DNA of 38,114 nt from an uncultured Rikenellaceae bacterium (GTDB lineage Bacteria; Bacteroidota; Bacteroidia; Bacteroidales; VadinHA17). This document shows, piece after piece, positions 1 to 31,652 of the stretch; positions within the stretch are counted from its first letter, which is position 1; each line of letters opens with the position of its first letter. The stretch covers positions 1 through 38,114 of the forward strand of contig CAYOFK010000004.1 in NCBI GenBank assembly GCA_964403185.1, given 5' to 3'. The notes below the pieces were generated by a model. The model worked only from the letters and a program-made list of their open reading frames with translations, was not told the DNA's origin and searched no databases. Both the position numbers and the translations under genes were made by a program.

Positions 1-52
1 ATTCCTGCTTTCGCAGGAATGATATGTAATCTGACTTTTGAGACAGCCCCTT
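1..52. repeat. Right part of a MITE/REP-like intergenic repeat, cut by the window edge; identical copy at 31580-31631
   Basis: By direct comparison, 52 of 52 nt match 31580-31631, and identity breaks at 53/31632. Contains the perfect hairpin ATTCCTGC-TTTC-GCAGGAAT (1-20) and the arm CTTTTGAGACAGCCCC (35-50). Confidence 0.8.
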
Positions 53-141
53 ATTCACATTGAACCCCTTCAGGGTTTGATTCTTACCAGAATCCAGTTC
101 CTTCAAAAGGATACAGATCTGCCTGATGCACTTCGGCCTTA

Positions 142-3100
142 TTACTTATTACTTCCCTTTGCAAACCCTTTCAGCAAACAGAGGTATGCATCTTCCAGCA
201 ACGGTGTCACATTAACAGCAGACGGATAGGGTTTTTCTTTTGATATGATCCTTACACTGATCTCATCACCATCAAGCATATGTTGCACAACCATTTGTTT
301 GTTTTCGAGTGCATCAAATTCTGCAGCCGGTATTTTGAACTGCCACACAAATTTTTCTGCCAGTTTGGTCATCTCCTGAGGTATTCCGGTATATTTCACT
401 TCCCCCTTATCAAGGACAGCCACCAGGTTACAGGAACTGGAAATGTCTTCGATAATATGTGTTGAGAACAATACGATGCGGTCGCGGCTCAATTCAACCA
501 GCATGTTACGGAACCGTATCCGTTCACGGGGATCCAGTCCGGCAGTAGGCTCATCCACAACAAGAATTCTTGGCAGGTGCAGCAGTATCTGTGCAATCCC
601 AATACGTTGTTTCATACCCCCGGAATAAGATCCGATCTTTTCGTTCCGTCGCTCATATATGTGTACTGATTTCAGGACATGCTCCAGTCTTTTCTTCCGG
701 GTTTCACTGTTTGAAATGCCCTTCAGGATGGCCTGGTAATCTAAAAACTCCCAGGCTGTAAGGTGTTCGTACGTACCAAACTCCTGGGGCAAATAACCGA
801 TCTGCCCCTGCAATTCCTCCCGTTTTTCAAGCGTGTCAATACCATTGATCCATATCTTTCCATAGCTTTGATCCAGGATGCCACAGATGATCCGCATCAT
901 GGTGGATTTGCCGGCGCCATTCGGACCCAGAAGTCCGAACATTCCGGCACCAATATCGAAAGACACCCCGTTGAGGGCTTTAAATGGCTGACGGCGCTTT
1001 CCAATCAGGGGAATTTGCTTAACCAGGCGCAATAAACGCCGGCGCAAGATTCCAAAACGACCCGAAATTCTTTCAATATTCACATGTTCCCTATACAATC
1101 TTTCCGCCGTCCTGTTTACTATCAGGGCCAATAACCACAGCACTCCCACCACGATCACCATACCTATATTCTTCCACATCTGCGAGAAGATATAGAAATT
1201 GATGAGAGGAATGCCCCAGTATAAAATCCCGGACAAGTATTTATCAACATTCTTAATAACTGATTTGCCCTGTTTATGGGTGAACTTTGACAGAACAATT
1301 CCGATGGGTTTGTATAAAAGAAGAATATAGAGATAGGTAATTATAGACCCGATTACGATCCAAAAGTCAGATTGCAGGAAAAAGTAGGTGAAATAGGTCA
1401 GGAATCCAAGCAGTGGCAATTGCCATATAAAATTATTATAATCGCTGATCTTGTTGTACTCCTTTTCCAGGCCGGCCCGTTGCCTGATGGCAATTCCTCC
1501 TTTCCATTCCCTGACCACCCTTGGATCTCTCTCATAGATCTTTACAAGCCTCTGGATCTTAATACGGATGGTTTCATCAGGGGCAATAAGTTTGGTGCTG
1601 GCTCTTCTCAGGCTGGTAAGAAAAAACCAGGCTGATCCAGGGATCAGTATGATCATCAGAACAAACAAGATCATCCTCCATAAAAAGGAATCCACTCCGG
1701 TGACCACCAGGTATCCACCAAGAACAAATGCTGCAATTTGCAGGATAATTACTTTCAGGTCGAGAGATTTGAACCAGGAAATTGCATTTTCCATGCCGAA
1801 AAAGAAAGTCGGGATAAATACCAGTGTAAAGACTGTGCTCAATGACAGGCCTCCGATTACCGTAATGGCAAAGGGCGCTCCGATGATGCTAACATATTCG
1901 GCCTGACCCATGGCAAGGGGGATCATGGCCACAATGGTGGTAATGGCTGTGATCAGAATGGGCCTCACCCGGGATAAACCTGAAACCATCAGGGCACGGG
2001 TCATACGGTAGCCTCTTTTTCGTAAAATGTTGGCATAATCGATAAGCAGGATGCTATTATTAACCACGATTCCAATCAGGATGAGGAACCCGGTGAGTGT
2101 ATTGGCATTCAGCAGGCTGTTGCCCGTCAATATCAGAGCAATAAAGGAACCAACTGCAGCCAGTGGAATTGAAAACATTAAGACAAGAGGTGTGGTAAAC
2201 GACTCAAATACCGAAGCCAGGATCATATATATCAGGATAAAGGCCGCTAAGATGAGGAATTTAAATTCTGCCAGCTCATCTTCTTCATGGATCACCTCCA
2301 CAGCCACACCTGATGGCAGATTATAGGCCGCAACGATATCATCAATTTCAAGACGGTAGGCCTCCAGAAGATCTTTGGAATCCTCTGCTTCGGAAATAAA
2401 TGAGTAGTTTATCTCGATCTGTTTTTCCTGATCGACCCTGTTGATCCTCCTTAAGCCGTCAGCATACACAATATCTGCAATGGTTTGCAGCGCATGGGTG
2501 CCTCCACTCTGATCATAAACAGGCAATGCTCTGAGGTCTTCAATGGTCTTGTCACTTTCCCCCTGGATAGTGTCAGTATTCTCCTTTATGATGATGTCAT
2601 ATTCATCGGTTCCCTGTTTAAAGGTCATGCCGGAAGAAAATTCCCTGGAAAAAGAACCGAGTTCCGTACTGATGGCATTGAGTGTAATCCCGTATTCAGT
2701 CATCAGCACCTGGTCGAAAAAAAGGTGGATTTCCGGTTGATTGTTGGATACATTTACCGAAACCCTCCGGATGGATTCCAACTCATCAATAAAGTACCTG
2801 ATATCCTCAGCCACACCCTCCATTACTCCAAAATCATCTCCTTTTATAACGATCCGTTCACTACTGCTTCCCATTCCCAGCATGCGTTCAAAGCTTTGGG
2901 CTGTTTTACTGCCCGATGATCCCCTGAAACTATTACCCGATGTTGGTTGGGTCAGACTGATCTCAGCGTTGGCAATGGATTCCATTGATCCTTCCACTTC
3001 CGATTTTATATCCTCAAGTTTGCGTTCAGAAGTTTTTTTATAGTCTTCCTTCAATCGAACGGTTACAATGGCCTCTTCTTCCTGGACCTGGGAAATTACA

Positions 3101-4866
3101 TCCTGTTTTTCTTCCAGGTTTTCGAGTTGTTCTTCGATCTTTTGCACAACAAGATCGGTCGTCTCAAGGTTGGAACCGGATGGCATTGTAGCATAAATTT
3201 TAAATTCTTCTGTTTCCACCTCTGACAAGGAGGTGACATTTATGGAAAGGGCAATAAATACGGCGATAAAAAAGAATACCACGGCGCCAATAATGGTCCT
3301 TGCCGGGAATCTCATGCTGGTTTTCAGTACGAGAATATATATTTGAACAATGCGGTTACTTGTGGTTACTTTCTCATAGAAAATATTCTTGTCGCGTCCC
3401 CGTTTAAGGTAGTAATGAGCCGCCATGGGAATAAACAAAAGGGCCACCAATAAGGAGACCAGGAGGGTTGAAACAATGGATACACCCACCTGCAGGCCAT
3501 ACAGTTTCACAAGAAAATTGGAAGTAAATACAAAGGGCAGGAAAATGACTACGGTGGTTAAGGTTGCTGCAAAAATGGCTCGCCAAACCTCTTTCGTCCC
3601 CTTGTTTATGGCCGATTCCGGATCGAATCCGCCGGCAGATAAGCGGTAAATGTTTTCCAGTACAACCACCGAATTGTCCAGCAGCATCCCCACCGCCAAC
3701 GCAATTCCAACAAGGGTCAGGCTGTTGATGGTAACTCCGGTTGCATAAAAGAAGTTAAAGGCGGTAAAAACAGATATGGGAATGGCCAGTGCAACAATAG
3801 AAACGATGCGCAGATTCTTAAGGAACACCCACAAAACGAATATGGCCAGCAGCCCCCCGATCAGCGCCAGGTTAATGATCTGGTTGATATTCCGTTCCAT
3901 GGATTCAGCCACGCTTGACTGCACAACAATTTCAATATCCTGGCTTTTATATTTTTCATTAAGCCTGTCTATCTGGTTCTGTGTTTTCCGTGACAATTCA
4001 ATCAGGTTGGCCCGGGCATCATTAACCAGAAGGACCGTGATGGCATTTTTACCATTAACCCTGCTATATGAAGTTTCTTCTTTGACCCCAAAGAAAACTG
4101 TAGCAATATCCTTTAATAATACGGATCCTGATCCGACTGCAATATTTTCTATTTCGCTGATGTTAGAATATTCAGCACTGACATTAACGAAGTAACGCTT
4201 TCCTGAATCTGTTATGTATCCTGCAAATGATTTTTCCAGGGCATTTCTTCGCAAGGCATTCTGTATTGTAGCGGGTGTAATATCATAGGCCTGGCATGCA
4301 TCCATATTCAGCCTGATCTCAATGGACTTGGTCCGGCCACCATACACATTTGCCGAGGCAATGCCATCAATATTCTCAAATTCAGTTTTAATTTTCTGAT
4401 CAACCAGTGTCCGTACCCTGTCGATATCTCCCCCTCCCCGGACCTGAAGTTCCATAAACTGGTTGCTCAGACTTGCCAAATCCACCTTGGATACAAATAT
4501 CTGGAAATTTTCCGGGATGGTTGATCTGGCAATGTCAACCTTTTCCTGGAGTTTCAGATAGGCATATTTAAAATTCACATTTTGCCGGTAGCTGACAATG
4601 ATCTGGGTGGACCTTGAGCTGATAAAGGATTCTATACTTTCGATTCCTTCAAGAGTACCGATGGCACCTTCCAGCGGAATGACCGCCTGGTTTTCCATAT
4701 AATCCGGATCGACTTCAACAGGTGAAGATATACGGATGAAAAGGATGGGCAGCTCAGCATTTGGATACAACTCTACAGGTAAATTCTTATAGGACACCAC
4801 TCCCAACAGGGACAGGCCTATAAACAACATGCTGATCAGAATTTTTCTATGAATTACCAGCTTCAT
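142..4866 (-). CDS. RND (AcrB-like) efflux permease fused C-terminally to a six-TM segment and a complete ABC-transporter ATP-binding domain (1574 aa)
   Basis: Uninterrupted ORF with ATG at 4866-4864 and stop at 144-142. aa 1-~1035 (nt 1762-4866) have an RND layout: an N-terminal TM, two large periplasmic loops, TM4 motif GMLLDNSVVVLENIYR and TM11 motif SRVRPILITAITTIVAMIPLAMG. aa ~1036-1255 (nt 1102-1761) carry six extra hydrophobic segments. aa ~1256-1574 (nt 145-1101) form an ABC NBD with Walker A GPNGAGKST (901-927), Q-loop GYLPQE, signature YSGGMKQR, Walker B ILVVDEPTAGLD (Glu codon 550-552) and H-loop FSTH. Confidence 0.85.
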   Translation of the reverse strand: MKLVIHRKILISMLFIGLSLLGVVSYKNLPVELYPNAELPILFIRISSPVEVDPDYMENQAVIPLEGAIGTLEGIESIESFISSRSTQIIVSYRQNVNFKYAYLKLQEKVDIARSTIPENFQIFVSKVDLASLSNQFMELQVRGGGDIDRVRTLVDQKIKTEFENIDGIASANVYGGRTKSIEIRLNMDACQAYDITPATIQNALRRNALEKSFAGYITDSGKRYFVNVSAEYSNISEIENIAVGSGSVLLKDIATVFFGVKEETSYSRVNGKNAITVLLVNDARANLIELSRKTQNQIDRLNEKYKSQDIEIVVQSSVAESMERNINQIINLALIGGLLAIFVLWVFLKNLRIVSIVALAIPISVFTAFNFFYATGVTINSLTLVGIALAVGMLLDNSVVVLENIYRLSAGGFDPESAINKGTKEVWRAIFAATLTTVVIFLPFVFTSNFLVKLYGLQVGVSIVSTLLVSLLVALLFIPMAAHYYLKRGRDKNIFYEKVTTSNRIVQIYILVLKTSMRFPARTIIGAVVFFFIAVFIALSINVTSLSEVETEEFKIYATMPSGSNLETTDLVVQKIEEQLENLEEKQDVISQVQEEEAIVTVRLKEDYKKTSERKLEDIKSEVEGSMESIANAEISLTQPTSGNSFRGSSGSKTAQSFERMLGMGSSSERIVIKGDDFGVMEGVAEDIRYFIDELESIRRVSVNVSNNQPEIHLFFDQVLMTEYGITLNAISTELGSFSREFSSGMTFKQGTDEYDIIIKENTDTIQGESDKTIEDLRALPVYDQSGGTHALQTIADIVYADGLRRINRVDQEKQIEINYSFISEAEDSKDLLEAYRLEIDDIVAAYNLPSGVAVEVIHEEDELAEFKFLILAAFILIYMILASVFESFTTPLVLMFSIPLAAVGSFIALILTGNSLLNANTLTGFLILIGIVVNNSILLIDYANILRKRGYRMTRALMVSGLSRVRPILITAITTIVAMIPLAMGQAEYVSIIGAPFAITVIGGLSLSTVFTLVFIPTFFFGMENAISWFKSLDLKVIILQIAAFVLGGYLVVTGVDSFLWRMILFVLMIILIPGSAWFFLTSLRRASTKLIAPDETIRIKIQRLVKIYERDPRVVREWKGGIAIRQRAGLEKEYNKISDYNNFIWQLPLLGFLTYFTYFFLQSDFWIVIGSIITYLYILLLYKPIGIVLSKFTHKQGKSVIKNVDKYLSGILYWGIPLINFYIFSQMWKNIGMVIVVGVLWLLALIVNRTAERLYREHVNIERISGRFGILRRRLLRLVKQIPLIGKRRQPFKALNGVSFDIGAGMFGLLGPNGAGKSTMMRIICGILDQSYGKIWINGIDTLEKREELQGQIGYLPQEFGTYEHLTAWEFLDYQAILKGISNSETRKKRLEHVLKSVHIYERRNEKIGSYSGGMKQRIGIAQILLHLPRILVVDEPTAGLDPRERIRFRNMLVELSRDRIVLFSTHIIEDISSSCNLVAVLDKGEVKYTGIPQEMTKLAEKFVWQFKIPAAEFDALENKQMVVQHMLDGDEISVRIISKEKPYPSAVNVTPLLEDAYLCLLKGFAKGSNK

Positions 4867-4887
4867 GTCCTTTCCCGGGGTCTATTG

Positions 4888-7800
4888 TTACACTTCTTTT
4901 TTTTCAGAACTGGAAAATACAAACCGCAATCTGTCCAGGACATCATATACGCAGGGGATCACGATCAGGGTCAATAAAGTAGAGGTTACCAGGCCCCCGA
5001 TCACAGCCAGAGCCATAGGGGACCGCAGGGATGCACTTTCACCAAAACCAAAGGTAAGTGGCAGCAAAGCCAGTATAGTAGTGAGACTTGTTATAACGAT
5101 CGGTCTGATCCGCTGTTGGCCGGCCTGTATGATCGCATCCAGGCGTTGCATTCCTTCCTGGCGCAACTGATTGATCCTGTCAACCAGGATGATGGAATCG
5201 TTTACCGCAATTCCGGCGAGCATAATGATGCCGATAATGGCCATAATATTCAGGGGCCTTCCCATGAAAAAGAACAAAAAAATGGTCCCCACAGCAGCCA
5301 GGGAAATGGTTAGCAATATGGTGAACGGATGGATCAGTGATTCGAATTGTGAAGCCAGTACCATATATACCAAAACCAGGGATAAGATCAATGCAAATTT
5401 CAAGTTATTCATCGACTCCTTTCGTTTTTCTTCCTCTCCGGTCACAGTGATACTGTAGTTTTCAGGCAGCACCAGGGAACTAACCCGGGTCTCGATTTGT
5501 TGTGCAATTTTATCCAGGGCAATGCCCGTTTCCATCTGGGCCATTACTTTCCCTATCCTGTTCTGATTGCGTCTGAATATTTCTTTCGGGGATACCGAAG
5601 ATCTGATCCTGGCGACTTCATCGAGTCGTATTACTTCATTACCATTCACGATGATCATATCATTCAGGTCGGAAAGTATTTTTTCAGGAATCCGTAATAC
5701 AATGCGGGTTAATTCGCCGTCCTTTTCCATGTCACCGGCATCTTTGCCTTCCAGTTGATCCTGTATCTGAGTGATTATTGTAGAAACATCTAAATTGTAC
5801 AGGCCGGCCCGCATTCGATCCACAACAATTTCCACTTCGGGAGATCCACCTTCAATAGTGGTTTTTACATTATATATCCCGGACATTCCGGCCAGAATCT
5901 CTTTGACCTGCAATGTCAGGTCCTCGATCACATTCAGGTCTTCTCCCCTGACTTCAACCACCAGGGGTGCTTCTTCGGTCCCCAGGATGCTATTTAAGGC
6001 CGATTCGTTCTGAACAAAGCTGAACTCCACTCCGGGAATACTGTCGGTTAAGCTGCTGATAGCCCTGATGACCTCAAGTGAAGAATAGTTAGATTCCGGA
6101 TTCAGGTTGACCTTGATATTTCCGGTATTCTCGCCTTTAAAGACCGCCTGGATATCTCCCGACAAATTGCTTTCCGCTCCGGCATGACTATAGATAGACA
6201 CCATGTGGTCACCCAGGAGTTCCGTGATTATTTCCTCAAGATTTCTAATGGCCGAAGCCGTTCTGTTCAGGTGGGTTCCTTCGGGCATCTTTACTTCAAT
6301 ATCAAATTCATGGGTGCCGGTTTTGGGCATAAATTCCGTTCCGATCCCGGTGAGCAGGTAGAATGACACCCCCACAAGAGCTGCCGATAAAACTATGACC
6401 AGCCATTTTCTGAGGAGAACCTGACCAAGAAAGTTTCCATAGGCATTAAATGTAACAGACCGTTTAGCTACCGGAGCTGAACGTTTCCCATAGATCAGGT
6501 GGTACAACACAGGGATAAGAAAAATGGCCACGAACAAGGACGACAGAAGTGAAAATGTTACGGTCCATGCCTCATCTTTAAAAAGTTCACCGGATGCTCC
6601 ATGCAGGTAAACAATGGGAAGGAACACCACTATTGTGGTAATGGTGGATGCCGTGATGGCCCCGCCAACCTGGGCTGTTCCCTGTACGATGGCCTCCTTC
6701 ACCGGCATTCCGCTTTCATGGTTTCTGAATATATTCTCAATAACAATAATGGCATTATCCACCAGCATGCCTGCACCCAGGGCCAGTCCCCCAAGGGTCA
6801 TAATATTAATGGTCAGGTGCCCGAAATACATCAGGTTGAATGTAGCGATGATGGACACAGGAATGGCAGTACTTACTATTAAGGTTGTTCCAAAGCGCCT
6901 GAGGAAAAGGAAAAGCACAAATACCGCCAGCACCACCCCCAGTATTGCAGTGTTTTTAACCTCATTAATGGAATTATCAATATAGGTGCCCTGGTCTGAA
7001 ACAACGGTCAGGTCATAGCCCGGCAGGGCTTTTTCAATTTCCACCATCGATTCTTTTATCTGATCAACGGCTTTTACTGTATTAAACCGTGTTTCTTTAA
7101 AAACGGACAGGCCGATACATCTTGCCCCGTTCAGCCGGACGATATTTGCAGGTTCTTTATTTGAAAAACGAATCTCCCCCACCTCTTTCAGAAAAATTGG
7201 GGCATATCCCTGATTTGAAGATGTGGGTTCCCCCACGGAGGCTTCAACGGGTTTATAGCCGACAATTATAGTACCCAGGTCTTCAACTTCTTCAATAATA
7301 CTCACACCTTTAATAATGTACTGCATTCCCATTTCAGTAATGGATCCGCCGGAAATATTCCGGTTAAAGTTTTGTATTTTTTGACTTATTTCATCCAGAG
7401 TCAGGTCAAAAGCATCCAGTTTGTACTGGTTTGTTAAGAACACCACTTCTCCCTCTTCCTGTCCGGACAACTCAACTTCTGCCACACCTTCCAGGCGAAC
7501 CAGTTTATTCCTGATATAGGTCTCAGCCACTTTCCTCAGTTCATTCATATCGGTGATGTCCTGGTGTGTTAATCCGATGAGCATTACCGGCGCTGTGTTG
7601 GGATCATGCTGGGTAATATTGATCTCATCGATTTCAAGGTTTTGGCTCAAGGCATTCAGCTCTTTCTGTAAGTCCAGAAAAGCTTCATCCATATCTTTGT
7701 TCCAGACATATTCAACGGTTATCTGGGCAGAGCCATTCCGGGATATTGAAGAAACCTGGATTACATCGCTTTGGCGTATGGCCAGGGCCTCAATATTTTC

Positions 7801-7995: not shown

Positions 7996-8029
7996 TGGAT
8001 TACCTGATGATGGTTTCCGGAGCAAGCAA

Positions 8030-9088: not shown

Positions 9089-9092
9089 GTGT

Positions 9093-10613
9093 TTATTTTA
9101 ATGTTTCAAGAATGGCCTCCGAATCATTGAATAACTCAGAGGGGATTACCGGTTTATTCTTCTCAAAATCGTACAATGATTGAATTTTGAGGTTCAGTAA
9201 TTCGATTTTGTAATTAATTAATGCCTGTGCCAGGCTCATTTTCTTCTCAGACAATTGGGTTTGGAACAGGTTCAGATCCATCCCGGTCAGATCCCCGTTC
9301 TCATAACGTTCAAGGTTGATTTCATAGGTTAACTGGGCATTTTTATCATTTTGCCGGGCGATGTCGATTTGATTGAGCTGGTTCTCCAGATTCCGGTACA
9401 CTTTTCTGATATCAATGATAATCTGTAGTTTTTGCTGGTCGAAGTTAAGCTCCTGGGTTTTGATAACGGCTTCCTGTGCTTTGATCCGGGCCTTTCTTTC
9501 ACCCCAGTCCCACAATGGTACATTAAAAGCTAAAGATACCCGTGGATTTTGAGTGGGATTATCGTAGATATTCCGGAATTGTTCATTTTCACTAAAAACC
9601 CCGACCGAGATCTGGAGATCTCCCCTGAATTCATTTAGCGACCTGGTGCGGATCAACTGAAACTGGGAGGTTTCAATATCGATTTCACGCTGGCGCAGTT
9701 CCATTCTGGAATTCAGACCGTAATCAACTGCTTTTTCGAGATCCACTGCCACAGTATCTGAAGAAATATCCGCAATTATTATAATGTTTTCATACAGGTC
9801 CATCCCCAGGAAAAATTTGAAATCATCCTTAGCATTTTCAAGAGCAACTGAGTTGTTGTACAGATTCGACCGTGCAGTGCTTAAATTCAGCTCTGCCTGG
9901 TATAACTCTTCCCGGGCTGCCAGCCCTGCATCCACTTTATTGCGAATAATATCAAAACTGTTCTGTGTGTTGGTTAATTCTTCCTGGGCAATGACCAGGC
10001 TCATTTGAGCCAGATGCACATTATAGAAAAACTGCGTGACATTTTTTTCAAGGTTCAGCAACTGCAATGCATAACTGATATTGGCATTCTCATAGTCCAG
10101 TTCAATTTCAGTTAGTTCCAGTTTTTGCCTGTTGTAGGTAAACAAGGGTTGCGTCAGGCTCAGGTACAGATCGTTAGAAAAGGTTTTAATGATCTCTTCT
10201 GATCCTGTAAAATCAGATTTATTATACTGCCATCCCAGGGTATTAACCAGGGAAAGAGTCCCGTCTGTCCATAAAACAGGCTGATCCACCCTGAATGTTC
10301 CCGAAGAAGTGAAATTTTCATTCGTGAACCACTGGGAGAACCGGTTATCAAATGTACGCCTGTTACTGTATTCCATCGGATTCACCGATAAAGAAAACTG
10401 AGATTTTAAGGAGGCCCTTTGCGCGTTCAGGGATTCCCGGGCACGCATCAGGTTAAAAAGCGAGCGCTGGATATCGGGACTGTTCCGGCCCGCAAATTCA
10501 ATCGCTGCATCCAGGGTTATTACCGATTGTGACAAAACAGGCAACCATGCCCCTGAGATCAGGATCAATAAGGTTATTAATATTATTAACCGCTTCATGA
10601 TACTATATTTCAT
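9093..10613 (-). CDS. TolC-family outer-membrane efflux protein
   Basis: ~506 aa with signal peptide MKRLIILITLLILISGAWLPVLSQ. Two internally repeated alpha-helical/beta segments rich in L/Q/E heptads, typical of the OEP family. ATG candidates at 10613 and 10598; the ORF-track start at 10622 is TTG. Confidence 0.85.
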   Translation of the reverse strand: MKYSIMKRLIILITLLILISGAWLPVLSQSVITLDAAIEFAGRNSPDIQRSLFNLMRARESLNAQRASLKSQFSLSVNPMEYSNRRTFDNRFSQWFTNENFTSSGTFRVDQPVLWTDGTLSLVNTLGWQYNKSDFTGSEEIIKTFSNDLYLSLTQPLFTYNRQKLELTEIELDYENANISYALQLLNLEKNVTQFFYNVHLAQMSLVIAQEELTNTQNSFDIIRNKVDAGLAAREELYQAELNLSTARSNLYNNSVALENAKDDFKFFLGMDLYENIIIIADISSDTVAVDLEKAVDYGLNSRMELRQREIDIETSQFQLIRTRSLNEFRGDLQISVGVFSENEQFRNIYDNPTQNPRVSLAFNVPLWDWGERKARIKAQEAVIKTQELNFDQQKLQIIIDIRKVYRNLENQLNQIDIARQNDKNAQLTYEINLERYENGDLTGMDLNLFQTQLSEKKMSLAQALINYKIELLNLKIQSLYDFEKNKPVIPSELFNDSEAILETLK

Positions 10614-10628
10614 CTGTTTCAATAATTT

Positions 10629-13600
10629 TCAATGTTCATCTTGTTTGACAAGCTTTACTGCATCTGCTATCACCTGCCGGCCATCACCAAGATTTGTAAG
10701 TTCAATAACTGCCGTATCGGGTGAGAAATAAAAGGAGCCCAGGCTGTTCCATCCGCCCGAAATATCATTCAGGTCAAGGAGCGGAGTTCCCTGTCCATCA
10801 TCATGATTAATTATAAACTGGTACTTGCCGGCATCCCCGGTTCCTCCCCTGTCTCCTTGTTTCATGACAAAGCCTCTACCCCCGGCTTGTTGAGATTCCA
10901 TATAGAAATAGACTTCGTAATACCCGCTTTCAGGAATTGGAACGTTCCAGATTGCTTTCCTGTCCCCGGCACCCTGTCGTGTATAATATGCCGACCGGAC
11001 GTATCTTCCAAAGAATTTTGAATTGGTGGTCAAGGTCCAGTTCACCGGGATTCTCCAGGTTCTGTATCCCTGATATCTTTGTTCTTCTTCCTTATTCTTT
11101 GACAGAAGTTTAGCAAAAAAACCTTCACTTTCAGGTTGCATGAAGGTAAATTCCGGATCTTCATTATCGACAATGATCTCATTCGGCAGGATCAGATCAA
11201 CCGGGTCATCAACAATCACCTCGCCTTCAAACGGAACCTTTTTATTATTGTCTTCAATAGTCCGGAATGTGTTAATCAATTCCAAAGGGATGTTCTTTGA
11301 AGTTAAAGTTTGGATGGTCATGGCCCTGGGCGCCTGGTCAAGCAAGTAACTGATCTCCTTATTCTGGTTTCCTTCAAGAAAGATCAGTTTTTCAATTGTG
11401 TTGTCTTCCCCGGGCCCGCCGAAACCACCCCTGTCACTGCCACGGCCTCCACCACCTATTCTGAAATTGATCTTCACAATACCAGGAACGGGCTCCAGGT
11501 TTGAGACCTTAAACTCCACCATGGTTTTCATCATTTCCTGGGTTCTCACATTTTCAGCCGTTACGGGACTGAAGATGAATCCCGGCAAAGCTTTGGACTG
11601 GAACCAATCGTCAATAAACTTCTGCAGATCAATGTTAAAACGCTGATCAATCTCATTGGCAAAATCACTGAACGGAACCACATTGAATTTATGACCTTCG
11701 AGATAGGCATATAAAAAAGTTTCAAAATCTTCTTTTCCGGCGGTGGCCTTGATACTTGAGAACAGGAACTCTCCTTTTAGCTTGATCACATTATCAATGA
11801 TCTGAACTTTTTCCGGATCACTCAACAGTTCTGAAAAGCTTTTTTCCTGAAGGGCCATATTTGCTTTTTCATCTTCACTGATCCCTGAGAATTGACGCAT
11901 CCATGAAGTCCTCATATCTGCAAAAGTGCTTTTCAGGTAGGATTCTAAAACCCTGTTAAAAATGGGCAAATCTTCCGCTGCGATATAGTTGACGTAATTG
12001 TAGAAGTTCGGGAAAATGTAATAGGGATTGGCACGTTCCTCAGTTTGCATTTGTCCCCTTCTGTAATTAAAACTGCCCCTGCCCTGTTCATTCGCAAATA
12101 AACCCGCAAAATTATTCAGTGCCCTGACCTCATAATCCATTTTAGTCAGACCCGGGCCGCCTCTTTTCGAGCGCCTCTCCATTCTGTCAATAGTGCCGGC
12201 AAAATTTGCTTCCCGCAAACCCGCTCCCATCTCAGGAATTAAAACCATTTCGGGCTGCACTGATTCAAATCCTCCGGACCAAACATGCTGGAAAGATGCA
12301 TATTGAACCGGCACTTCAACAATGGTAAATCTCTTGTATGGATACCGGAGGTTTATCTTTCTTTCATAATCCTGCAATCGTTCTGAAATGATTTCTGACA
12401 GTGTATCTTTCAATTCCGGAAAAACATCCACAAAATAATCATGATCAGGGTGGAATAGTACAATAAATTCCACGCTGTCAGCCATCAGGGATTTCTTTTC
12501 ATAATTTCCCATAAGCAGGGATAGAAAGGGTAAGGAATTCTCCGGAGTGAAACGCACACCCTCCGGCAGTTTCTCCTCCACGCCCTGGGAAACAGGCATC
12601 AAATCATAGGATGAACGCACATCAAGGGTGAAATCTGTAAAATCCTGGTGTAACCATCCGGGATTGCTGTTGCTGTATGTCACTCCACCGGTTGGATACC
12701 AATTGGTCTCCGGGGTCAGCATAAGATAATCAGGCGAAAGGAATGCGTACCTGTTCTGATAGTATTTTGTCAAGTCCTGACGCGATTCAATATCCATATC
12801 CAGATAACACACTGCTTCATTGATGTTGCCTTCATAGCTGATGGAGAAACTTGCAGATTGCCCGGGAGCCAGAGGCTTCTCAGGCTGAATAAACAACAGG
12901 TGGTGATCGCGGAAAAAGTCCACCTGTTGGCCATTATTTGTAATACCCAACACCTCAAGCCCCGGATTCAGGCTTAGCAGTATCTTTTCGCGGGAGGCCT
13001 CCGTTGTATTCTGTATTGTTATATCTGAACGGACTTTTATACTGTTGCCAAGATGCTCCAACCGGAGATGGTTGGATTGGATTGAAACCACAGGGAAATT
13101 TGCATAATCGTTATTTAATTCAATCATTAAGCCGCGCAGGTTCTGGTTCGATTGAAACTTACTTACATGTAAATATCCAAGATAAAATCCCGCAATCACA
13201 AATACAGCAGCAAAAACCGTTGACAAAATACTTGCCGGTTTCGACTGTGGCAGTCTTTTCAGCAGTACAATGGTCCAGAAAATAAATCCAATCCCTGTTA
13301 ATAAGTATATTCCCCTGTGTATTAGAATTTCATTCATGTTACCAAAACCTGCAATTTCAGATTTCATCATGGGAACATTGTAAGCCATATAATCAAACAG
13401 GTAATACACTTTACCCTTTAAATAAAACACCGTAAGTGCAATATATCCCAGTAAAAGGAGAAAAGTGATGCCCTGGTTCCGGATCACACTCATGATCAGG
13501 AATGAAAGGCCAAGTATAAATATCAGGGTGGGAATGCTGATAAAAAGTAAATATTGCAGATATGCCAAACCATCAAATCCGGTACGTTGTGATACCAGGT

Positions 13601-14033
13601 TAAATATGGCTACCATGACCAATACGACCAGATTCAATGTAAGGAAAACAATGAGGTTTCCAAGGGTTTTTCCCAGTACATAATCGACGTTGCTCATCGA
13701 CCGCATATAAATAACTTCAGTGGTATCCAGTTTTTTATCCCTTTTTAAGAAATCAGAGGCCAGGAAGGCTGCGATGATGGCCTGTGCCATGTTCAGGATC
13801 AGCAAACTCATGTATGGGATCCCGGCGGGAATGATTGAAATGTCCCAGTTGCCGGAACCAAATACTTCGGCCTGGGTCACCAGATTATAAAAGAACAATA
13901 CGACCAGGGCTATGATTCCAAAAATTCTGAAAAACCAGCTCCTGGTGAGGGTGATCATTTCGTATTTTGCAACGGTCCAGATGTGAAAACCAAGCATAGT
14001 GTTGTATTTTTCTGTTAAATTATTCCAAGTCAT
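10629..14033 (-). CDS. ABC-2-type permease (7 TM) fused to a large extracytoplasmic M1-aminopeptidase-like region lacking HEXXH and a golvesin/Xly-CBD-like C-terminal domain (1134 aa)
   Basis: The ATG at 14033 overlaps the upstream ATPase gene by 14 nt. aa 1-~295 hold seven hydrophobic segments. An M1-like layout follows (…RYPYKRFTIVEVP…SGGFES… in place of GAMEN; …FETFLYAYLEGHKFNVVPFSDFANEIDQRFNIDLQKFIDDWFQSKALPGF…). No HEXXH occurs anywhere in the protein. The C-terminus (…GYYEVYFYM…GGWNSLGSFYF…VIADAVKLV) resembles the golvesin C-terminal-like domain. Confidence 0.8.
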   Translation of the reverse strand: MTWNNLTEKYNTMLGFHIWTVAKYEMITLTRSWFFRIFGIIALVVLFFYNLVTQAEVFGSGNWDISIIPAGIPYMSLLILNMAQAIIAAFLASDFLKRDKKLDTTEVIYMRSMSNVDYVLGKTLGNLIVFLTLNLVVLVMVAIFNLVSQRTGFDGLAYLQYLLFISIPTLIFILGLSFLIMSVIRNQGITFLLLLGYIALTVFYLKGKVYYLFDYMAYNVPMMKSEIAGFGNMNEILIHRGIYLLTGIGFIFWTIVLLKRLPQSKPASILSTVFAAVFVIAGFYLGYLHVSKFQSNQNLRGLMIELNNDYANFPVVSIQSNHLRLEHLGNSIKVRSDITIQNTTEASREKILLSLNPGLEVLGITNNGQQVDFFRDHHLLFIQPEKPLAPGQSASFSISYEGNINEAVCYLDMDIESRQDLTKYYQNRYAFLSPDYLMLTPETNWYPTGGVTYSNSNPGWLHQDFTDFTLDVRSSYDLMPVSQGVEEKLPEGVRFTPENSLPFLSLLMGNYEKKSLMADSVEFIVLFHPDHDYFVDVFPELKDTLSEIISERLQDYERKINLRYPYKRFTIVEVPVQYASFQHVWSGGFESVQPEMVLIPEMGAGLREANFAGTIDRMERRSKRGGPGLTKMDYEVRALNNFAGLFANEQGRGSFNYRRGQMQTEERANPYYIFPNFYNYVNYIAAEDLPIFNRVLESYLKSTFADMRTSWMRQFSGISEDEKANMALQEKSFSELLSDPEKVQIIDNVIKLKGEFLFSSIKATAGKEDFETFLYAYLEGHKFNVVPFSDFANEIDQRFNIDLQKFIDDWFQSKALPGFIFSPVTAENVRTQEMMKTMVEFKVSNLEPVPGIVKINFRIGGGGRGSDRGGFGGPGEDNTIEKLIFLEGNQNKEISYLLDQAPRAMTIQTLTSKNIPLELINTFRTIEDNNKKVPFEGEVIVDDPVDLILPNEIIVDNEDPEFTFMQPESEGFFAKLLSKNKEEEQRYQGYRTWRIPVNWTLTTNSKFFGRYVRSAYYTRQGAGDRKAIWNVPIPESGYYEVYFYMESQQAGGRGFVMKQGDRGGTGDAGKYQFIINHDDGQGTPLLDLNDISGGWNSLGSFYFSPDTAVIELTNLGDGRQVIADAVKLVKQDEH

Positions 14034-14919
14034 CCACCCACTGGTCTAGTTTACTTTCCATAAAATAGACGTAGGCATGTTCAAGATTTGGTTCGATGTT
14101 CTTACCGTTAAAACCATTGATATTATCTGCCACTACCTGCACTTCCCATCCTCCGGAAATGGGCACGGTTGAAACCACCGGGAATTTTTCACTGATCTGT
14201 TGAAACTCCGTTTCAGTTGCCTGAATAACCCAGGCATGGCCTTTTACCATTTCAATAAGCGCATCGGGTGCACCATTATAGGCCAGAGATCCCTGGTGCA
14301 GGAGTGCCATATTTTTACATGTACTGGAAATATCGCCAACTATATGAGTGGACAGGATGATGATCACATCCCTTTTACTTATGGTCGCCAGTAAATTCCT
14401 GAACCGGATTCGCTCTTCAGGATCCAGTCCGGTGGTCGGTTCATCAACAATGATGATGTCCGGATCGTTTATTAATGCCTGGGCAATTCCAAGGCGCCGC
14501 TTCATACCTCCTGAAAGTTTGTTTGTTTTGCGGTCCCTTGCTTCAAACAATCCAACATTTTCAAGCATGGAAGCCACTGCTTCTTTCCGTTTCGCACTGC
14601 TTTTCATGCCGGCCAACCGGGCTGTATAATCCAAAAATTCATAGGTCTTAAGCTTCGGGAAAAACCTGAAATCCTGGGGCAGATATCCAAGCATGGCCCT
14701 GATCTCCCGCCGGTTTTTCATCAGGTCCAGGTTGTTAACAGTCACCTTGCCGGCCGTCGGCTTAATTAATGTTGACAAAATACGGATCAGGCTGGACTTT
14801 CCGGCACCGTTTGGACCAAGCAGACCAAAAATGCCATTTTCAATTTTGATGCTGACCTGTTTTAAAGCCCGGTTTCCGTTTTTGTAAGTTTTACTGAGAT
14901 TTTCGATGACTATTTCCAC
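14020..14919 (-). CDS. ABC transporter ATP-binding protein (ABC-2/DrrA-like), first gene of the operon
   Basis: 299 aa with a GTG start; an in-frame TAA lies 2 codons upstream and there is no ATG before the conserved first strand IVIENLSKTY. Motifs: Walker A GPNGAGKSS, Q-loop GYLPQD, signature LSGGMKRR, Walker B IIIVDEPTTGLD, H-loop LSTH. Confidence 0.9.
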   Translation of the reverse strand: MEIVIENLSKTYKNGNRALKQVSIKIENGIFGLLGPNGAGKSSLIRILSTLIKPTAGKVTVNNLDLMKNRREIRAMLGYLPQDFRFFPKLKTYEFLDYTARLAGMKSSAKRKEAVASMLENVGLFEARDRKTNKLSGGMKRRLGIAQALINDPDIIIVDEPTTGLDPEERIRFRNLLATISKRDVIIILSTHIVGDISSTCKNMALLHQGSLAYNGAPDALIEMVKGHAWVIQATETEFQQISEKFPVVSTVPISGGWEVQVVADNINGFNGKNIEPNLEHAYVYFMESKLDQWVDDLE

Positions 14920-15218
14920 AGAATGTTAATTAAGTTATATCAAGGTGATCGCTTATCTGTCTGAAATTCAATTATGCTTGAATATTATTGTTGAAGCTAA
15001 TTAAAAAATCCTTCTCCATATGATGTTATAGAGCCTGTTTAAATATTAGTTGCACATACTTTTAGACGCTTGTAAATCCAAAAGATTACAGATTCGTTTT
15101 CCCGGCAACCATTGGACTGGCAATTCTTTTGATTTATTCCCTTCTCTCTTACAAAAAAAAGTGATGGGAAATTTGGTTTATATTATAAACTTATTTATAT
15201 TTGAAATAAATTTAAAAA

Positions 15219-15925: not shown

Positions 15926-16169
15926 GTCTGCATTAATAAAGCACTAAAGCACTCAGGTACTTCGGCAGCATTCCCCCGACGAGCTATGTTGTCGGGGTTA
16001 ATTCGTCTTTTGAATTTGGCTACCATAGTTAGCCAAATCCAGGTCTCATTAACATTATTCCAATCAATTTTTTGTGTTACTTTGCAGTCTTATGAGTAAC
16101 AGTTGCATATATAAATACAATCCGGCATACGGTGAAAGAAGGGAGCAAGGAAAATCTAAAGCGGAAAAA

Positions 16170-31629: not shown

Positions 31630-31652
31630 TTTGCTTTATTTCAAATACCTGC

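What the first reader, a model, noticed from the sequence alone, without database searches (positions are those of the whole stretch)
142..14919. Six-gene operon combining a complete ABC module, a complete RND module and only one adaptor and one TolC
The genes are co-directional with minimal spacing. ATPase/permease overlap by 14 nt. Permease to TolC is 15 nt (6 nt if the TTG start is used). TolC to MFP is 4 nt, MFP to RND 34 nt, and RND to the RND-ABC fusion 21 nt. I saw no internal terminator-like hairpins, so this is most simply one transcript of ~14.8 kb. Both MacB-type ABC pumps and AcrB-type RND pumps use an MFP plus TolC, yet here a single MFP/TolC pair sits between an ABC pair and an RND pair. 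The last gene also physically links the two transporter classes. Either two inner-membrane engines share one periplasmic/outer-membrane conduit, or they form one supercomplex. The huge periplasmic domain on the ABC permease suggests a specific, possibly macromolecular or peptide substrate rather than generic drug efflux. The only nearby regulator is a divergent winged-helix gene at 15419-15709.
Basis: partly seen in the sequence, partly recalled or inferred. Interest (0 to 1): 0.8.

Follow-up and report, generated by a model that had tools for sequence, protein, structure and literature searches.

The report
RND efflux pump fused to ABC ATPase
A conserved gene cluster builds a cell-envelope export machine in which a proton-driven RND pump subunit is covalently fused, through six extra membrane helices, to an ATP-driven ABC motor; this hybrid is widespread in Bacteroidota and related phyla, and I found no description of it in the searched literature.

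Summary
Six co-directional minus-strand genes (14919..142), with overlaps or gaps of -14 to 34 nt, encode an ABC ATPase, an ABC permease with a large periplasmic domain, a TolC-like channel, an adaptor, an RND pump and an RND-ABC fusion.

Four corrections apply.
1. The ABC parts are ABC-2 (type V), not MacB-type.
2. The permease's periplasmic part has an M1-aminopeptidase fold without the zinc site, followed by a Golvesin_C domain.
3. The cluster is incomplete. In every relative with enough sequence, a seventh gene (a ~240-aa ABC-2 permease) follows the fusion. Here the contig stops 141 nt after the fusion, inside a repeat.
4. The fused ATPase is split. Its first strand and A-loop tyrosine lie about 175 residues, containing four membrane helices, before the rest of the domain.

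The fusion and gene order are conserved in Prolixibacteraceae (including cultured Tangfeifania and Gaoshiqia), in Rikenellaceae, and in contigs whose fusion clusters include Latescibacterota and KSB1 proteins.

Best reading: one supercomplex links an MdtBC-like two-paralogue RND pump to a two-ATPase, two-permease ABC-2 transporter for stepwise export. The substrate is unknown. I found no paper describing it. I rate it a new variant of known kinds.

The parts
14020..14919 (-). g1: stand-alone ABC-2-class ATPase (NBD-A), 299 aa, GTG start
   Evidence: ABC_tran E 1.3e-32. DrrA and GldA models score about 197 bits, below their cut-offs. Walker A, Q-loop, signature, Walker B and H-loop are all canonical. 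Orthologs are 45-88% identical to one another in relatives.
10629..14033 (-). g2: ABC-2 permease fused to a large inferred-periplasmic domain, 1134 aa; overlaps g1 by 14 nt
   Evidence: Pfam finds ABC2_membrane_2, Peptidase_M1 and Golvesin_C. Hydropathy gives about 7 hydrophobic segments. AF2 model: pLDDT 83.5, pTM 0.81. 2144 homologues found, the top 120 at 46-59% identity and full length.
13104..14033 (-). g2 membrane domain (aa 1-310): amphipathic N-terminal helix plus about 7 membrane helices
   Evidence: ABC2_membrane_2 E 1.1e-5, 25.3 bits against a cut-off of 27.2. Hydropathy, model helices. JGI names homologues NosY-type 'multi-copper enzyme maturation permease'.
11454..13085 (-). g2 M1-aminopeptidase-fold domain (aa ~317-860) without zinc site; probable pseudo-peptidase
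   Evidence: Foldseek matches IRAP, ERAP1, APN and F3 at E down to 4e-19 over about 640 columns, 10-13% identity. HExxH is absent in 69 of 70 family members. The catalytic Tyr of F3 'YGKG' is Leu752 in 68 of 70. The boundaries are approximate.
10647..11042 (-). g2 C-terminal Golvesin_C beta-sandwich
   Evidence: PF25275 E 1.1e-15, 58 bits against a cut-off of 31.6. [quoted passage not shown] That this is the same domain as Pfam Golvesin_C is my inference.
9093..10622 (-). g3: TolC-family outer-membrane factor, 509 aa
   Evidence: OEP E 3.9e-41 with two repeats. Hydrophobic N-terminal segment at aa 12-30. Present in the Bacteroidota loci, absent from the cluster in L016 and L017, divergent in L020.
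8030..9088 (-). g4: periplasmic adaptor (MFP), 352 aa
   Evidence: TIGR01730 RND_mfp, 190.4 bits against a cut-off of 94.9. Present in every related locus whose sequence reaches that position.
4888..8025 (-). g5: RND permease paralogue 1 (probable start ATG at 7995)
   Evidence: ACR_tran E 5e-210, full length. 26% identical to the RND part of g6. TM4 reads D-N, TM10 reads N-D instead of K-N, and the TM11 Arg is kept.
1777..4866 (-). g6 RND part (aa 1-1030): RND permease paralogue 2
   Evidence: ACR_tran aa 2-1023 matches profile positions 3-1018 of 1021, E 8.7e-165. The best solved relative is MdtB, 9lyq_B. TM4 D-N and TM10 N-N are aligned to MdtB K-K-N and MexB A-K-N.
1597..1758 (-). g6 extra membrane helices TM13-TM14 (aa 1037-1090)
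   Evidence: Hydropathy. AF2 helices 18-38 and 42-71 of the model, pLDDT about 90. Conserved in 98 sequences.
1528..1569 (-). g6 displaced first strand and A-loop of the ATPase (IRIKIQRLVKIYER, aa 1100-1113)
   Evidence: Aligns to g1 'EIVIENLSKTYK'. I1102, L1107, V1108, K1109 and Y1111 are invariant in 98 of 98 sequences. AF2 predicts a strand at aa 1102-1111, pLDDT about 91. An equivalent '[NS]L[TV]KI[YF]'-type motif sits about 190 aa before Walker A in the Rikenellaceae locus and the loci linked to Latescibacterota and KSB1.
1000..1527 (-). g6 insertion inside the ATPase (aa 1114-1289): conserved amphipathic helix, four membrane helices (TM15-18), cytosolic helix
   Evidence: AF2 secondary structure and hydropathy. 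R1119, E1120, W1121, G1124, I1127, R1128, R1130 and G1132 are at least 90% conserved. No Pfam hit at E<=10.
145..999 (-). g6 remainder of the ATPase (NBD-B) plus C-terminal ~70-aa beta-rich domain (aa 1290-1574)
   Evidence: ABC_tran E 1.6e-29. Canonical catalytic motifs. Foldseek matches TM_1403, NosF, ABCA1/4/7 and LptB. 39% identical to g1 in the multiple alignment.
14920..15412 (.). 493-nt AT-rich intergenic region upstream of g1; probable promoter region
   Evidence: It is the only long non-coding gap in the cluster. The sigma-70 scan is uninformative for Bacteroidota promoters. No promoter was mapped.
15413..15709 (+). Divergent winged-helix (HTH_34) gene; possible local regulator, not conserved with the cluster
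   Evidence: PF13601 E 2.5e-32. Relatives show two-component systems or unrelated genes instead.
1..52 (-). 52-nt repeat with an 8-bp/GAAA hairpin at the contig end, downstream of g6
   Evidence: The 20-nt hairpin matches exactly at 31580-31599. The pairwise alignment shows the last 52 nt of the contig end identical to 31580-31631. Both copies lie just 3' of minus-strand genes. The contig stops inside it, where relatives have g7.

Best explanation
The window holds six of the seven genes of a conserved envelope-spanning export system.

RND side. Two divergent RND paralogues (g5 and g6, 26% identical) sit next to one adaptor (g4) and, in Bacteroidota, one TolC-like channel (g3). This layout resembles MdtABC-TolC.

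ABC side. There is a type V (ABC-2) transporter made of two paralogous, catalytically intact ATPases and two different ABC-2 permeases. The ATPases are g1 and the C-terminus of g6. The permeases are the N-terminus of g2 and g7, and g7 lies beyond the contig end.

The link. The two sides are joined covalently. RND paralogue g6 continues past TM12 into two extra membrane helices, then the first strand and A-loop of the ATPase. A ~175-residue insertion with an amphipathic helix and four membrane helices follows, and then the rest of the ATPase.

Inferred mechanism. The ABC-2 module uses ATP to move or extract an amphipathic substrate from the cytoplasm or inner leaflet to the periplasmic face. 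There the zinc-less M1-fold and Golvesin_C domains of g2 bind or guide it. The tethered RND trimer then captures it and expels it through the adaptor and channel. This would be a two-step relay built into one complex.

Stoichiometry is open. A g5(2)g6(1) trimer carrying one g1:g6C ATPase heterodimer is an attractive possibility.

Shown: the architecture, its conservation, the intact ATPase motifs, the split ATPase, and the loss of the M1 zinc site. Inferred: complex formation, direction of transport, the relay, the periplasmic location of the g2 domain, and the substrate.
For: - Fusion is real and conserved. The linker-plus-ATPase query gave 120 listed hits at 54-88% identity, mostly covering 90-100% of the query, many also carrying ACR_tran. 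Ten full-length orthologs were found in the genome scan, including Tangfeifania DSM 27063.
- The 268-aa linker occurs in only 97 clusters among 1.84 billion representatives. In all 15 members of at least 1500 aa it sits at about aa 1023-1295 of a 1550-1585 aa protein.
- Proteins clustering at 90% identity with fusion representatives are named Rikenellaceae, KSB1 and Latescibacterota.
- Gene order g1 to g6 is conserved wherever the locus reaches.
- g7 lies within about 50 nt of the g6 stop, or overlaps it, in every relative with enough sequence.
- g7 is an ABC-2 permease: 3 of 11 orthologs hit ABC2_membrane_2, best E 5.8e-8.
- The ATPases form two separate paralogue clades, 35-44% identical across clades, and both keep all catalytic motifs.
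- The split ATPase is supported.
- The RND part is full length.
- g2 has an M1 fold without HExxH or the catalytic Tyr.
- There is no excess of terminator-like hairpins and the junctions are tiny.
- From my own background knowledge, not looked up here: RND pumps capture substrates from the periplasm or outer leaflet and cooperate with single-component inner-membrane transporters, and MdtB2C is a heterotrimer. The review read does say that MdtBC is one of the rare heterotrimeric RND pumps. The E. coli ABC-2 exporter YbhFSR has been studied (PMC7190983, listed, title and abstract only). That its operon also encodes an adaptor, YbhG, is from memory.
Against: - There is no experimental or transcript evidence.
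- No multimer model could be run, so contacts between ATPases, between permeases, and between the ABC and RND parts are untested.
- The KSB1-linked locus L017 has only adaptor, RND, RND-ABC and g7 on an 11.4-kb contig. g1 and g2 are therefore not strictly required next to the fusion, and a g1:g6C heterodimer is not obligatory.
- Both RND paralogues lack two of the four canonical AcrB proton-relay residues (D408 to N, K940 to N). Their energy coupling is therefore uncertain.
- The six extra membrane helices match no known ABC membrane-domain fold. They show no detectable homology to g7 or to the g2 membrane domain.
- In this genome g7 is not seen. The 141 nt after g6 are unrelated to the g6-g7 junction of the closest relative.
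Confidence: 0.5

Rival explanations
1. Two functionally independent pumps. An ABC-2 exporter or exporters and an RND pump are merely co-expressed. They may use the single adaptor and TolC alternately. The fusion only secures co-localisation or equal dosage and transmits no substrate or energy.
For: Both modules look complete on their own. There are two intact ATPases and two ABC-2 permeases and full-length RND proteins with adaptor and channel. The channel gene comes and goes. The KSB1-linked locus lacks g1 and g2. Sharing of an outer-membrane channel between pump classes is known, for example FarAB and MtrCD sharing MtrE (PMC8277102).
Against: A covalent link through six conserved membrane helices has been maintained from Bacteroidota to contigs linked to Latescibacterota and KSB1. 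The linker is found in no full-length protein (at least 1500 aa) of another architecture; the shorter hits look like fragments, though this was not verified for each. That is hard to explain by dosage alone. The strongly conserved cytosolic helix in the insertion suggests a functional interface (R1119, E1120, W1121 and others).
Confidence: 0.2
2. ATP-assisted or ATP-gated RND pump. The fused ATPase, with partner g1 or a second g6, drives or gates the conformational cycle of the RND trimer through TM13-18. This would replace or supplement the proton relay.
For: In g5 and g6 of every ortholog examined, AcrB D408 is Asn (Ser in one g5 copy). AcrB K940 is invariably Asn. The ATPase is anchored directly to RND TM12 by membrane helices.
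Against: The TM4 Asp and the TM11 Arg (Lys in one g6 copy) and Thr are kept, so a reduced relay may still work. g5 shows the same substitutions yet has no ATPase. A dedicated ABC-2 permease (g7) is translationally linked to the ATPase. This points to an ordinary ATPase-permease partnership. I know of no precedent for an ATP-driven RND.
Confidence: 0.12
3. Periplasmic mechanotransducer. The ABC-2 module does not translocate a substrate. Like NosDFY, LolCDE or FtsEX, it uses ATP to move the g2 M1-fold and Golvesin_C domains. These would hold, unfold or hand a periplasmic peptide or glycan-bearing molecule to the RND or adaptor entrance.
For: The ATPases resemble NosF (Foldseek 7osf_B, 7o14_B, 7o0y). 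JGI labels g2 homologues NosY-type permease. g2 carries a large inferred-periplasmic binding-type domain with a dead active site and a Golvesin_C module. Acidic residues E590, Q593, E595 and E601 are conserved in 69-70 of 70 sequences, in the region I guess corresponds to the M1 substrate-amine-binding segment (the equivalence is not verified).
Against: This reading does not explain the second permease and ATPase being tied to the RND. It also does not explain the KSB1-linked locus without g2. No ligand is known. It partly overlaps with the best explanation.
Confidence: 0.15
4. Artefact. The 1574-aa ORF results from a sequencing or assembly error that joined an RND gene to a downstream ABC ATPase gene.
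For: The window is a metagenome-type contig that ends in a repeat. Some long-read assemblies do show frameshift-fragmented copies.
Against: The same uninterrupted 1550-1598-aa ORF occurs in ten independent assemblies, including a cultured isolate, and in distant loci. The junction region is itself conserved sequence.
Confidence: 0.01

Closest known systems
MdtABC-TolC (E. coli heteromultimeric RND pump)
   Same: Two adjacent paralogous RND genes follow one adaptor gene and use a TolC-family channel. MdtB is the best solved-structure match of g6 (9lyq_B, E 3e-65). MdtC and MdtB are among the better NCBIfam hits of both g5 and g6.
   Different: g5 and g6 are only 26% identical to each other. They fall far below the MdtB and MdtC equivalog cut-offs (384 bits against 1774; 350 against 1584). 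D408 and K940 are replaced by Asn. One paralogue carries six more membrane helices and an ATPase. An ABC-2 system is encoded in the same cluster.
YbhGFSR (E. coli ABC-2 exporter; the adaptor YbhG is recalled from memory)
   Same: It is an ABC-2/type V exporter with two ATPase domains and two different ~6-helix permeases. From memory, it is encoded together with a periplasmic adaptor (YbhG). PMC7190983, seen only as a title and abstract, covers YbhFSR.
   Different: In YbhF the two ATPase domains are fused to each other, not to an RND pump. There is no RND partner, no M1-fold domain and no membrane insertion in the ATPase. No sequence comparison with YbhFSR was made here.
TCDB family 3.A.1.145 (ABC-2 permease fused to an M1 peptidase domain; e.g. 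Myxococcus xanthus Q1D520)
   Same: An N-terminal ABC-2 membrane domain is fused to a C-terminal M1-type domain in a protein of about 1100-1200 aa. The family is functionally uncharacterised (PMC3924187).
   Different: Q1D520 is described with 13 membrane segments and a 'zinc dependent' peptidase. g2 has about 7 helices, no HExxH, an added Golvesin_C domain, and sits in an RND cluster. Direct homology to Q1D520 was not tested.
NosDFY (ABC-2 complex with a periplasmic partner for N2O-reductase maturation)
   Same: NosF is among the best structural matches of the fused ATPase, including its C-terminal domain. JGI labels g2 homologues as NosY-type permease. The idea of an ABC-2 motor acting on a periplasmic domain is shared.
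   Different: There are no NosD, NosL or NosZ genes here. The periplasmic domain is M1-like and covalently attached, and RND, adaptor and TolC are present.
   Same: It is an ATP-driven inner-membrane component that works with an adaptor and TolC.
   Different: MacB has 4 helices with the periplasmic domain between TM1 and TM2, and an FtsX-type fold. g2 has about 7 helices with a C-terminal periplasmic domain and hits ABC2_membrane_2. No FtsX or MacB model was hit.

Membership tests
RND superfamily, HAE-1/MdtBC-like tripartite pump | Full-length ACR_tran architecture (12 membrane helices, two large periplasmic loops) | tested here: met
   g5 aa 15-1030 and g6 aa 2-1023 cover the whole 1021-position profile (E 5e-210 and 9e-165).
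RND superfamily, HAE-1/MdtBC-like tripartite pump | Cognate adaptor (MFP) and outer-membrane factor encoded alongside | tested here: met
   g4 scores 190 bits on TIGR01730, above its cut-off. g3 hits OEP at E 3.9e-41. The OMF is missing from the cluster in L016 and L017.
RND superfamily, HAE-1/MdtBC-like tripartite pump | Canonical proton relay (AcrB D407, D408, K940, R971, T978) | tested here: not met
   The D407, R971 and T978 equivalents are present. D408 is Asn and K940 is Asn in g5 and g6 here and in the orthologs examined, with rare Ser or Lys exceptions at the D408 and R971 positions. The alignment to MdtB and MexB is shown.
RND superfamily, HAE-1/MdtBC-like tripartite pump | Equivalog-level similarity to MdtB or MdtC | tested here: not met
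   g5: MdtC 384 bits (cut-off 1774), MdtB 350 (cut-off 1584). g6: 258 and 242 bits.
RND superfamily, HAE-1/MdtBC-like tripartite pump | Heterotrimer formed by the two paralogues | not testable with these tools
   Only adjacency and co-conservation of g5 and g6 are shown.
ABC-2 / type V ABC exporters | ATPase with intact Walker A, Q-loop, signature, Walker B and H-loop, of the DrrA/NosF/ABCA type | tested here: met
   NCBIfam hits are DrrA and GldA. PDB sequence hits are ABCA3 and ABCA4. Foldseek hits are NosF, ABCA and TM_1403.
ABC-2 / type V ABC exporters | ABC-2 family membrane domain (~6 helices) | tested here: inconclusive
   The g2 N-terminus scores 25.3 bits on PF12679, just under the 27.2 cut-off, but many homologues carry the precomputed hit. 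For g7, 3 of 11 orthologs hit ABC2_membrane_2 (5.8e-8) and 2 hit ABC2_membrane_3. No solved relative was found by sequence.
ABC-2 / type V ABC exporters | Contiguous ATPase fold | tested here: not met
   In g6 the first strand and A-loop (aa 1100-1113) are separated from the rest (from aa ~1290) by an insertion containing four membrane helices.
MacB / type VII tripartite ABC pumps | Four membrane helices with the periplasmic domain between TM1 and TM2; FtsX/MacB_PCD domains | tested here: not met
   No FtsX or MacB_PCD hit was found. g2 has about 7 helices followed by a C-terminal large domain.
M1 zinc aminopeptidases | M1 fold (N-terminal beta domain plus thermolysin-like catalytic domain) | tested here: met
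   Foldseek finds IRAP, ERAP1, APN and F3 at E down to 4e-19 over about 640 aligned columns. Pfam Peptidase_M1 scores E 1.4e-6 on the distal half only.
M1 zinc aminopeptidases | HExxH-(18)-E zinc site and catalytic Tyr | tested here: not met
   No HExxH in 69 of 70 family members; the single match is at an unrelated position. The Tyr of 'YGKG' is Leu in 68 of 70.
TCDB 3.A.1.145 (peptidase-fused ABC-2 permeases) | ABC-2 membrane domain fused N-terminally to an M1-type domain | tested here: met
   The architecture is shown. The family description comes from PMC3924187. Sequence relatedness to the TCDB members was not tested.
Gliding-motility GldAFG ABC transporter | Equivalog scores for GldA and a GldF-type permease | tested here: not met
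   g1 scores 196.7 bits on GldA against a cut-off of 402.6. g7 orthologs give no GldF hit.

The most novel reading that the evidence does not exclude
This would be a true hybrid primary/secondary active transporter. One RND heterotrimer (g5(2)g6(1)) would carry a single built-in ABC-2 heterodimer, with ATPases g1:g6C and permeases g2:g7. ATP hydrolysis and the proton gradient would then drive successive steps of one export pathway across the whole envelope inside one complex. The split ATPase, with its four-helix membrane insertion, would act as the mechanical coupler between the two engines.
Probability: 0.25. Interest if true: 0.9.

Novelty: new variant of a known kind. Interest (0 to 1): 0.72.

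Why it matters
RND pumps (proton-driven) and ABC pumps (ATP-driven) are treated as separate engine classes of tripartite efflux systems. They are thought to cooperate only functionally. A conserved covalent RND-ABC fusion, embedded in a fixed seven-gene cluster, is natural 'Rosetta-stone' evidence that the two engines can work as one machine.

It offers a tractable system for asking how substrates pass from inner-membrane transporters to RND pumps. Tangfeifania diversioriginum DSM 27063 and Gaoshiqia sp. Z1-71 are named strains whose genomes carry the cluster (DSM 27063 is a culture-collection strain).

It also reveals two structural oddities worth study in their own right. One is an ATPase domain interrupted by a four-helix membrane insertion. 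The other is an ABC-2 permease carrying a zinc-less M1-peptidase-fold domain.

On the practical side, automatic annotation calls these proteins simply 'efflux RND transporter permease subunit' or 'hypothetical protein', which hides the architecture.

Tried and rejected
- Homology among membrane parts. Profile-profile comparison (hhalign) of the g6 linker against g7 and against the g2 membrane domain gave probabilities of 1.2% or less. No homology is detectable, so I dropped the idea that the six extra helices are a duplicated ABC-2 membrane domain.
- Fold match for the linker. Foldseek of the linker-plus-ATPase model matched only the ATPase part. Long alignments to ABCA proteins have rmsd above 20 A. 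No known membrane-domain fold can be assigned.
- Pfam on the linker, and on one g7 copy, at E<=10 gave nothing. g7 was only placed by scanning 11 orthologs. A profile search of solved structures found nothing.
- Recovering sequence beyond the contig end. Exact look-ups of g6 and of the 100%-identical g2 record were not on record. An exact DNA scan of metagenome contigs with the g6 3' junction gave 0 matches. Whether g7 exists in this genome stays open.
- Stand-alone linker-plus-ATPase proteins. The shorter hits look like contig-end or frameshift fragments, as searches showed for two of them. This was not verified for each, for example the 526-aa P0275.
- GldAFG, MacB and MdtB/MdtC equivalog membership were rejected on scores and topology.
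- Literature. Five usable searches found no paper describing an RND-ABC fusion (one more query was rejected as malformed). Absence from this library is not proof of absence elsewhere, and TCDB could not be consulted.
- Promoters. The sigma-70 scan gave chance-level counts (38 against 33.8 +/- 4.9) and is not suited to Bacteroidota promoters. I drew no conclusion from it.

Full report
**1. The observation**

ORF listing finds six long minus-strand ORFs:
- g1, 14919..14020
- g2, 14033..10629
- g3, 10622..9093
- g4, 9088..8030
- g5, 8025..4888
- g6, 4866..142

Pfam and NCBIfam give the following content:
- g1 is an ABC ATPase of the DrrA/GldA type.
- g2 is a 1134-aa protein with an N-terminal ABC-2 membrane domain, a weak Peptidase_M1 hit and a C-terminal Golvesin_C domain.
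- g3 is an OEP/TolC-family protein.
- g4 is an RND-type adaptor, above the NCBIfam cut-off.
- g5 is a full-length AcrB-family RND permease.
- g6 is 1574 aa: a full-length RND permease (aa 2-1023) followed by an ABC ATPase domain (aa 1298-1442).

The g4-g5 gap is 4 nt if the TTG start is used.

Terminator-like hairpins are at chance level, 19 against 16.0 +/- 4.7.

**2. The fusion is real and old**

A search with only the linker plus ATPase (g6 aa 1030-1574) listed 120 best hits at 54-88% identity. Most cover 90-100% of the query, and many also carry ACR_tran. Source names include Prolixibacteraceae, Draconibacterium, Mangrovibacterium and Bacteroidales.

A genome scan returned ten loci with a full-length ortholog (61-64% identity over aa 1 to ~1570). 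One is the cultured Tangfeifania diversioriginum DSM 27063.

Scoring the 268-aa linker alone against 1.84 billion representative proteins gave only 97 clusters. In all 15 members of at least 1500 aa the linker sits at about aa 1023-1295 of a 1550-1585-aa protein. The linker is therefore known only inside this architecture, although the shorter hits were not all checked.

Members of the 90%-identity clusters around these representatives are named Bacteroidota, Rikenellaceae, candidate division KSB1 and Latescibacterota. An assembly artefact is excluded.

**3. The cluster is conserved, and it has seven genes**

tblastn of g1 to g6 against the loci shows the same order wherever the sequence reaches.

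Every relative that extends past g6 has a further ORF of about 232-245 aa. It begins within about 50 nt of the g6 stop, or overlaps it. I call this gene g7.

It has no Pfam hit in the Prolixibacteraceae copies. However, 3 of 11 orthologs hit ABC2_membrane_2 (best E 5.8e-8), and others hit ABC2_membrane_3 or _4. g7 is therefore a divergent ABC-2 permease.

Distant loci show the following:
- L016, whose fusion clusters with Latescibacterota proteins: g1, g2, adaptor, RND, RND-ABC, g7, with no channel gene.
- L019: all seven genes.
- L020: the channel gene is divergent upstream, and the other six follow in order.
- L018, Rikenellaceae: a partial upstream ORF that is probably g2 (not verified), then channel, adaptor, RND, RND-ABC, g7.
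- L017, whose fusion clusters with a KSB1 protein: only adaptor, RND, RND-ABC and g7 on an 11.4-kb contig.

The constant core is thus adaptor + RND + RND-ABC + g7. g1 and g2 are nearly always present, and the channel gene is variable.

The window is itself a whole 38,114-bp contig that stops 141 nt after g6. Those 141 nt carry no g7 start. They end in a 52-nt repeat with an 8-bp/GAAA hairpin, which recurs identically at 31580-31631.

The closest relative found (88% identity in the ATPase, L022) has g7 starting 21 nt after the g6 stop. Whether this genome has g7 is unknown.

**4. Anatomy of g6**

Hydropathy shows the 12 RND helices plus about six more.

An AlphaFold2 model of aa 1020-1574, built with 97 homologues, has pLDDT 83.8 and pTM 0.66. 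In order, it predicts:
- two membrane helices (aa 1037-1090);
- a confident beta-strand at aa 1102-1111 (IRIKIQRLVK);
- an amphipathic helix;
- four membrane helices (about aa 1149-1259);
- a cytosolic helix;
- the ATPase from its second strand onward.

The strand aligns to the first strand and A-loop of g1 (EIVIENLSKTY). Its I..., L-V-K-x-Y residues are invariant in 98 of 98 sequences. The same 'nLtKiY' motif lies about 190 residues before Walker A in the Rikenellaceae copy and in the copies linked to Latescibacterota and KSB1.

NCBIfam alignments of the contiguous part lack the first 4-14 profile positions, which fits this picture.

The ATPase is therefore split by a membrane-embedded insertion. 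I know of no precedent for this (my own knowledge). I could not inspect coordinates, so pairing of the displaced strand with the ATPase sheet is inferred.

Foldseek matches only the ATPase and its C-terminal ~70-aa domain: TM_1403, NosF, ABCA1/4/7 and LptB. The extra helices match nothing. They show no profile similarity to g7 or to the g2 membrane domain.

**5. The two ATPases**

g1 and the g6 ATPase are 39% identical to each other. Across loci they fall into two clean paralogue clades: 45-88% within the g1 clade, 47-88% within the g6C clade, and 35-44% between the clades. All catalytic motifs are canonical in both.

Sequence therefore does not decide between a g1:g6C heterodimer and separate homodimers.

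**6. The RND pair**

g5 and the RND part of g6 are 26% identical. The best solved relative of g6 is MdtB.

Alignment to MdtB and MexB shows that AcrB D408 is Asn (Ser in one g5 copy) in both paralogues. AcrB K940 is Asn in every ortholog examined, including the distant ones. D407, R971 (Lys in one g6 copy) and T978 are kept.

The relay is non-canonical. It is equally so in the unfused paralogue, so by itself it does not show ATP dependence.

**7. g2**

Hydropathy gives about 7 hydrophobic segments, and the model gives an amphipathic helix followed by membrane helices. With the usual N-in topology this places the C-terminal ~820 aa in the periplasm, which is an inference.

The model has pLDDT 83.5 and pTM 0.81. 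It matches M1 aminopeptidases (IRAP, ERAP1, APN, F3) at E down to 4e-19 over about 640 columns.

HExxH is absent in 69 of 70 family members. The catalytic Tyr is Leu in 68 of 70. A different acidic motif, E-x-[VI]-Q-P-E-...-E-K-G, is conserved in 69-70 of 70. The domain is probably a binding pseudo-enzyme.

The C-terminal Golvesin_C domain clears its Pfam cut-off. [quoted passage not shown] That this is the same domain is my inference.

An ABC-2 permease fused to an M1 domain is a catalogued but uncharacterised architecture, TCDB 3.A.1.145 (PMC3924187).

**8. Surroundings**

Upstream of g1 lies a 493-nt AT-rich gap, then a divergent HTH_34 winged-helix gene, followed by housekeeping genes: GlnRS, asparaginase and OmpH.

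In relatives the neighbours differ. L001 and the Gaoshiqia locus L021 have two-component systems. No conserved regulator is evident.

**9. Interpretation**

What is shown:
- a conserved seven-gene cluster;
- a covalent RND-ABC link through conserved membrane helices;
- two intact paralogous ATPases and two ABC-2 permeases;
- one adaptor;
- a zinc-less M1-fold domain, inferred to be periplasmic.

What I infer is that these parts form one complex. The ABC-2 transporter would deliver substrate to the periplasmic face, the g2 domain would bind or guide it, and the RND pump would expel it through the adaptor and channel.

The inference rests on two things. One is the fusion, taken as evidence of physical partnership. 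The other is established knowledge that RND pumps capture substrates from the periplasm or outer leaflet. The review read here confirms that MdtBC is a rare heterotrimeric RND pump (PMC8277102). The rest is from my own knowledge.

Rival readings remain open:
- independent pumps sharing the adaptor and channel;
- an ATP-gated RND pump;
- a NosDFY-like mechanotransducer.

The substrate is unknown. The ABC-2 class, the Golvesin_C module and the M1-like domain would fit an amphipathic, glycan-bearing or peptide-bearing envelope molecule, but nothing tests this.

**10. Novelty**

Five usable full-text searches found no description of an RND-ABC fusion (one further query was rejected as malformed). 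Databases label the protein 'efflux RND transporter permease subunit', 'hypothetical protein', or a compound AcrB/ABC ATPase name.

All the parts belong to known families, but the combination is new as far as I could determine. That combination is the covalent RND-ABC link, the split ATPase with its membrane insertion, and the fixed association with a peptidase-fold ABC-2 permease. I rate it a new variant of a known kind, with interest 0.72.

Noticed in passing
window 1-52 and 31580-31631: An identical 52-nt repeat contains a perfect hairpin, ATTCCTGC-GAAA-GCAGGAAT. Both copies lie just downstream of minus-strand genes: g6 and the TonB-dependent-receptor-like gene at 31653-34898. The contig ends inside one copy. 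It may be an intergenic repeat or terminator-like element that broke the assembly.
   Followed up: partly
window 53-141: The sequence right after the g6 stop has no similarity to the g6-g7 junction of the closest relative. In L022, g7 starts 21 nt after the stop. So g7 is either displaced, lost, or separated by misassembly in this genome.
   Followed up: partly
g5 and g6, TM4 and TM10 (window about 6745-6790, 5210-5250; 3650-3700, 2040-2080): Both RND paralogues, in the orthologs examined including distant loci, have Asn in place of AcrB D408 (Ser in one copy) and K940. Whether this reduced proton relay is typical of a larger Bacteroidota RND subfamily was not checked.
   Followed up: partly
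L012 9535-10000 (Tangfeifania diversioriginum): The g5-g6 spacer is about 466 nt in this isolate, against about 20-70 nt in most other loci. The content of the spacer was not examined.
   Followed up: no
L001 8568-10615; L021 5687-8010: OmpR-type response regulator and histidine kinase pairs lie next to the cluster in two relatives, downstream in L001 and divergent upstream in L021. In the window the neighbour is an HTH_34 gene. Regulation may differ between lineages.
   Followed up: no
window 16074-17831 and 23817-25340: Two class-I Glx-type aminoacyl-tRNA synthetase genes lie within 8 kb. One is GlnRS-like with tRNA-synt_1c_C domains. The other is GluRS-like with Anticodon_2. This looks like ordinary housekeeping content.
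   Followed up: no
L001 and L002 (ERZ25039483, ERZ25039461 contigs): In these assemblies the RND, RND-ABC and g2 genes are split into several ORFs by apparent frameshifts. This explains why many database 'homologues' of the fusion are 500-950-aa fragments.
   Followed up: partly
g2 aa 590-603 (window about 12225-12266): The motif E-x-[VI]-Q-P-E-x-[VI]-[LF]-x-P-E-K-G has E590, Q593, E595 and E601 conserved in 69-70 of 70 family members. It lies in the M1-fold domain that has lost its zinc ligands. It may be a ligand-binding site. Its equivalence to the M1 'GxMEN' segment was not verified.
   Followed up: no
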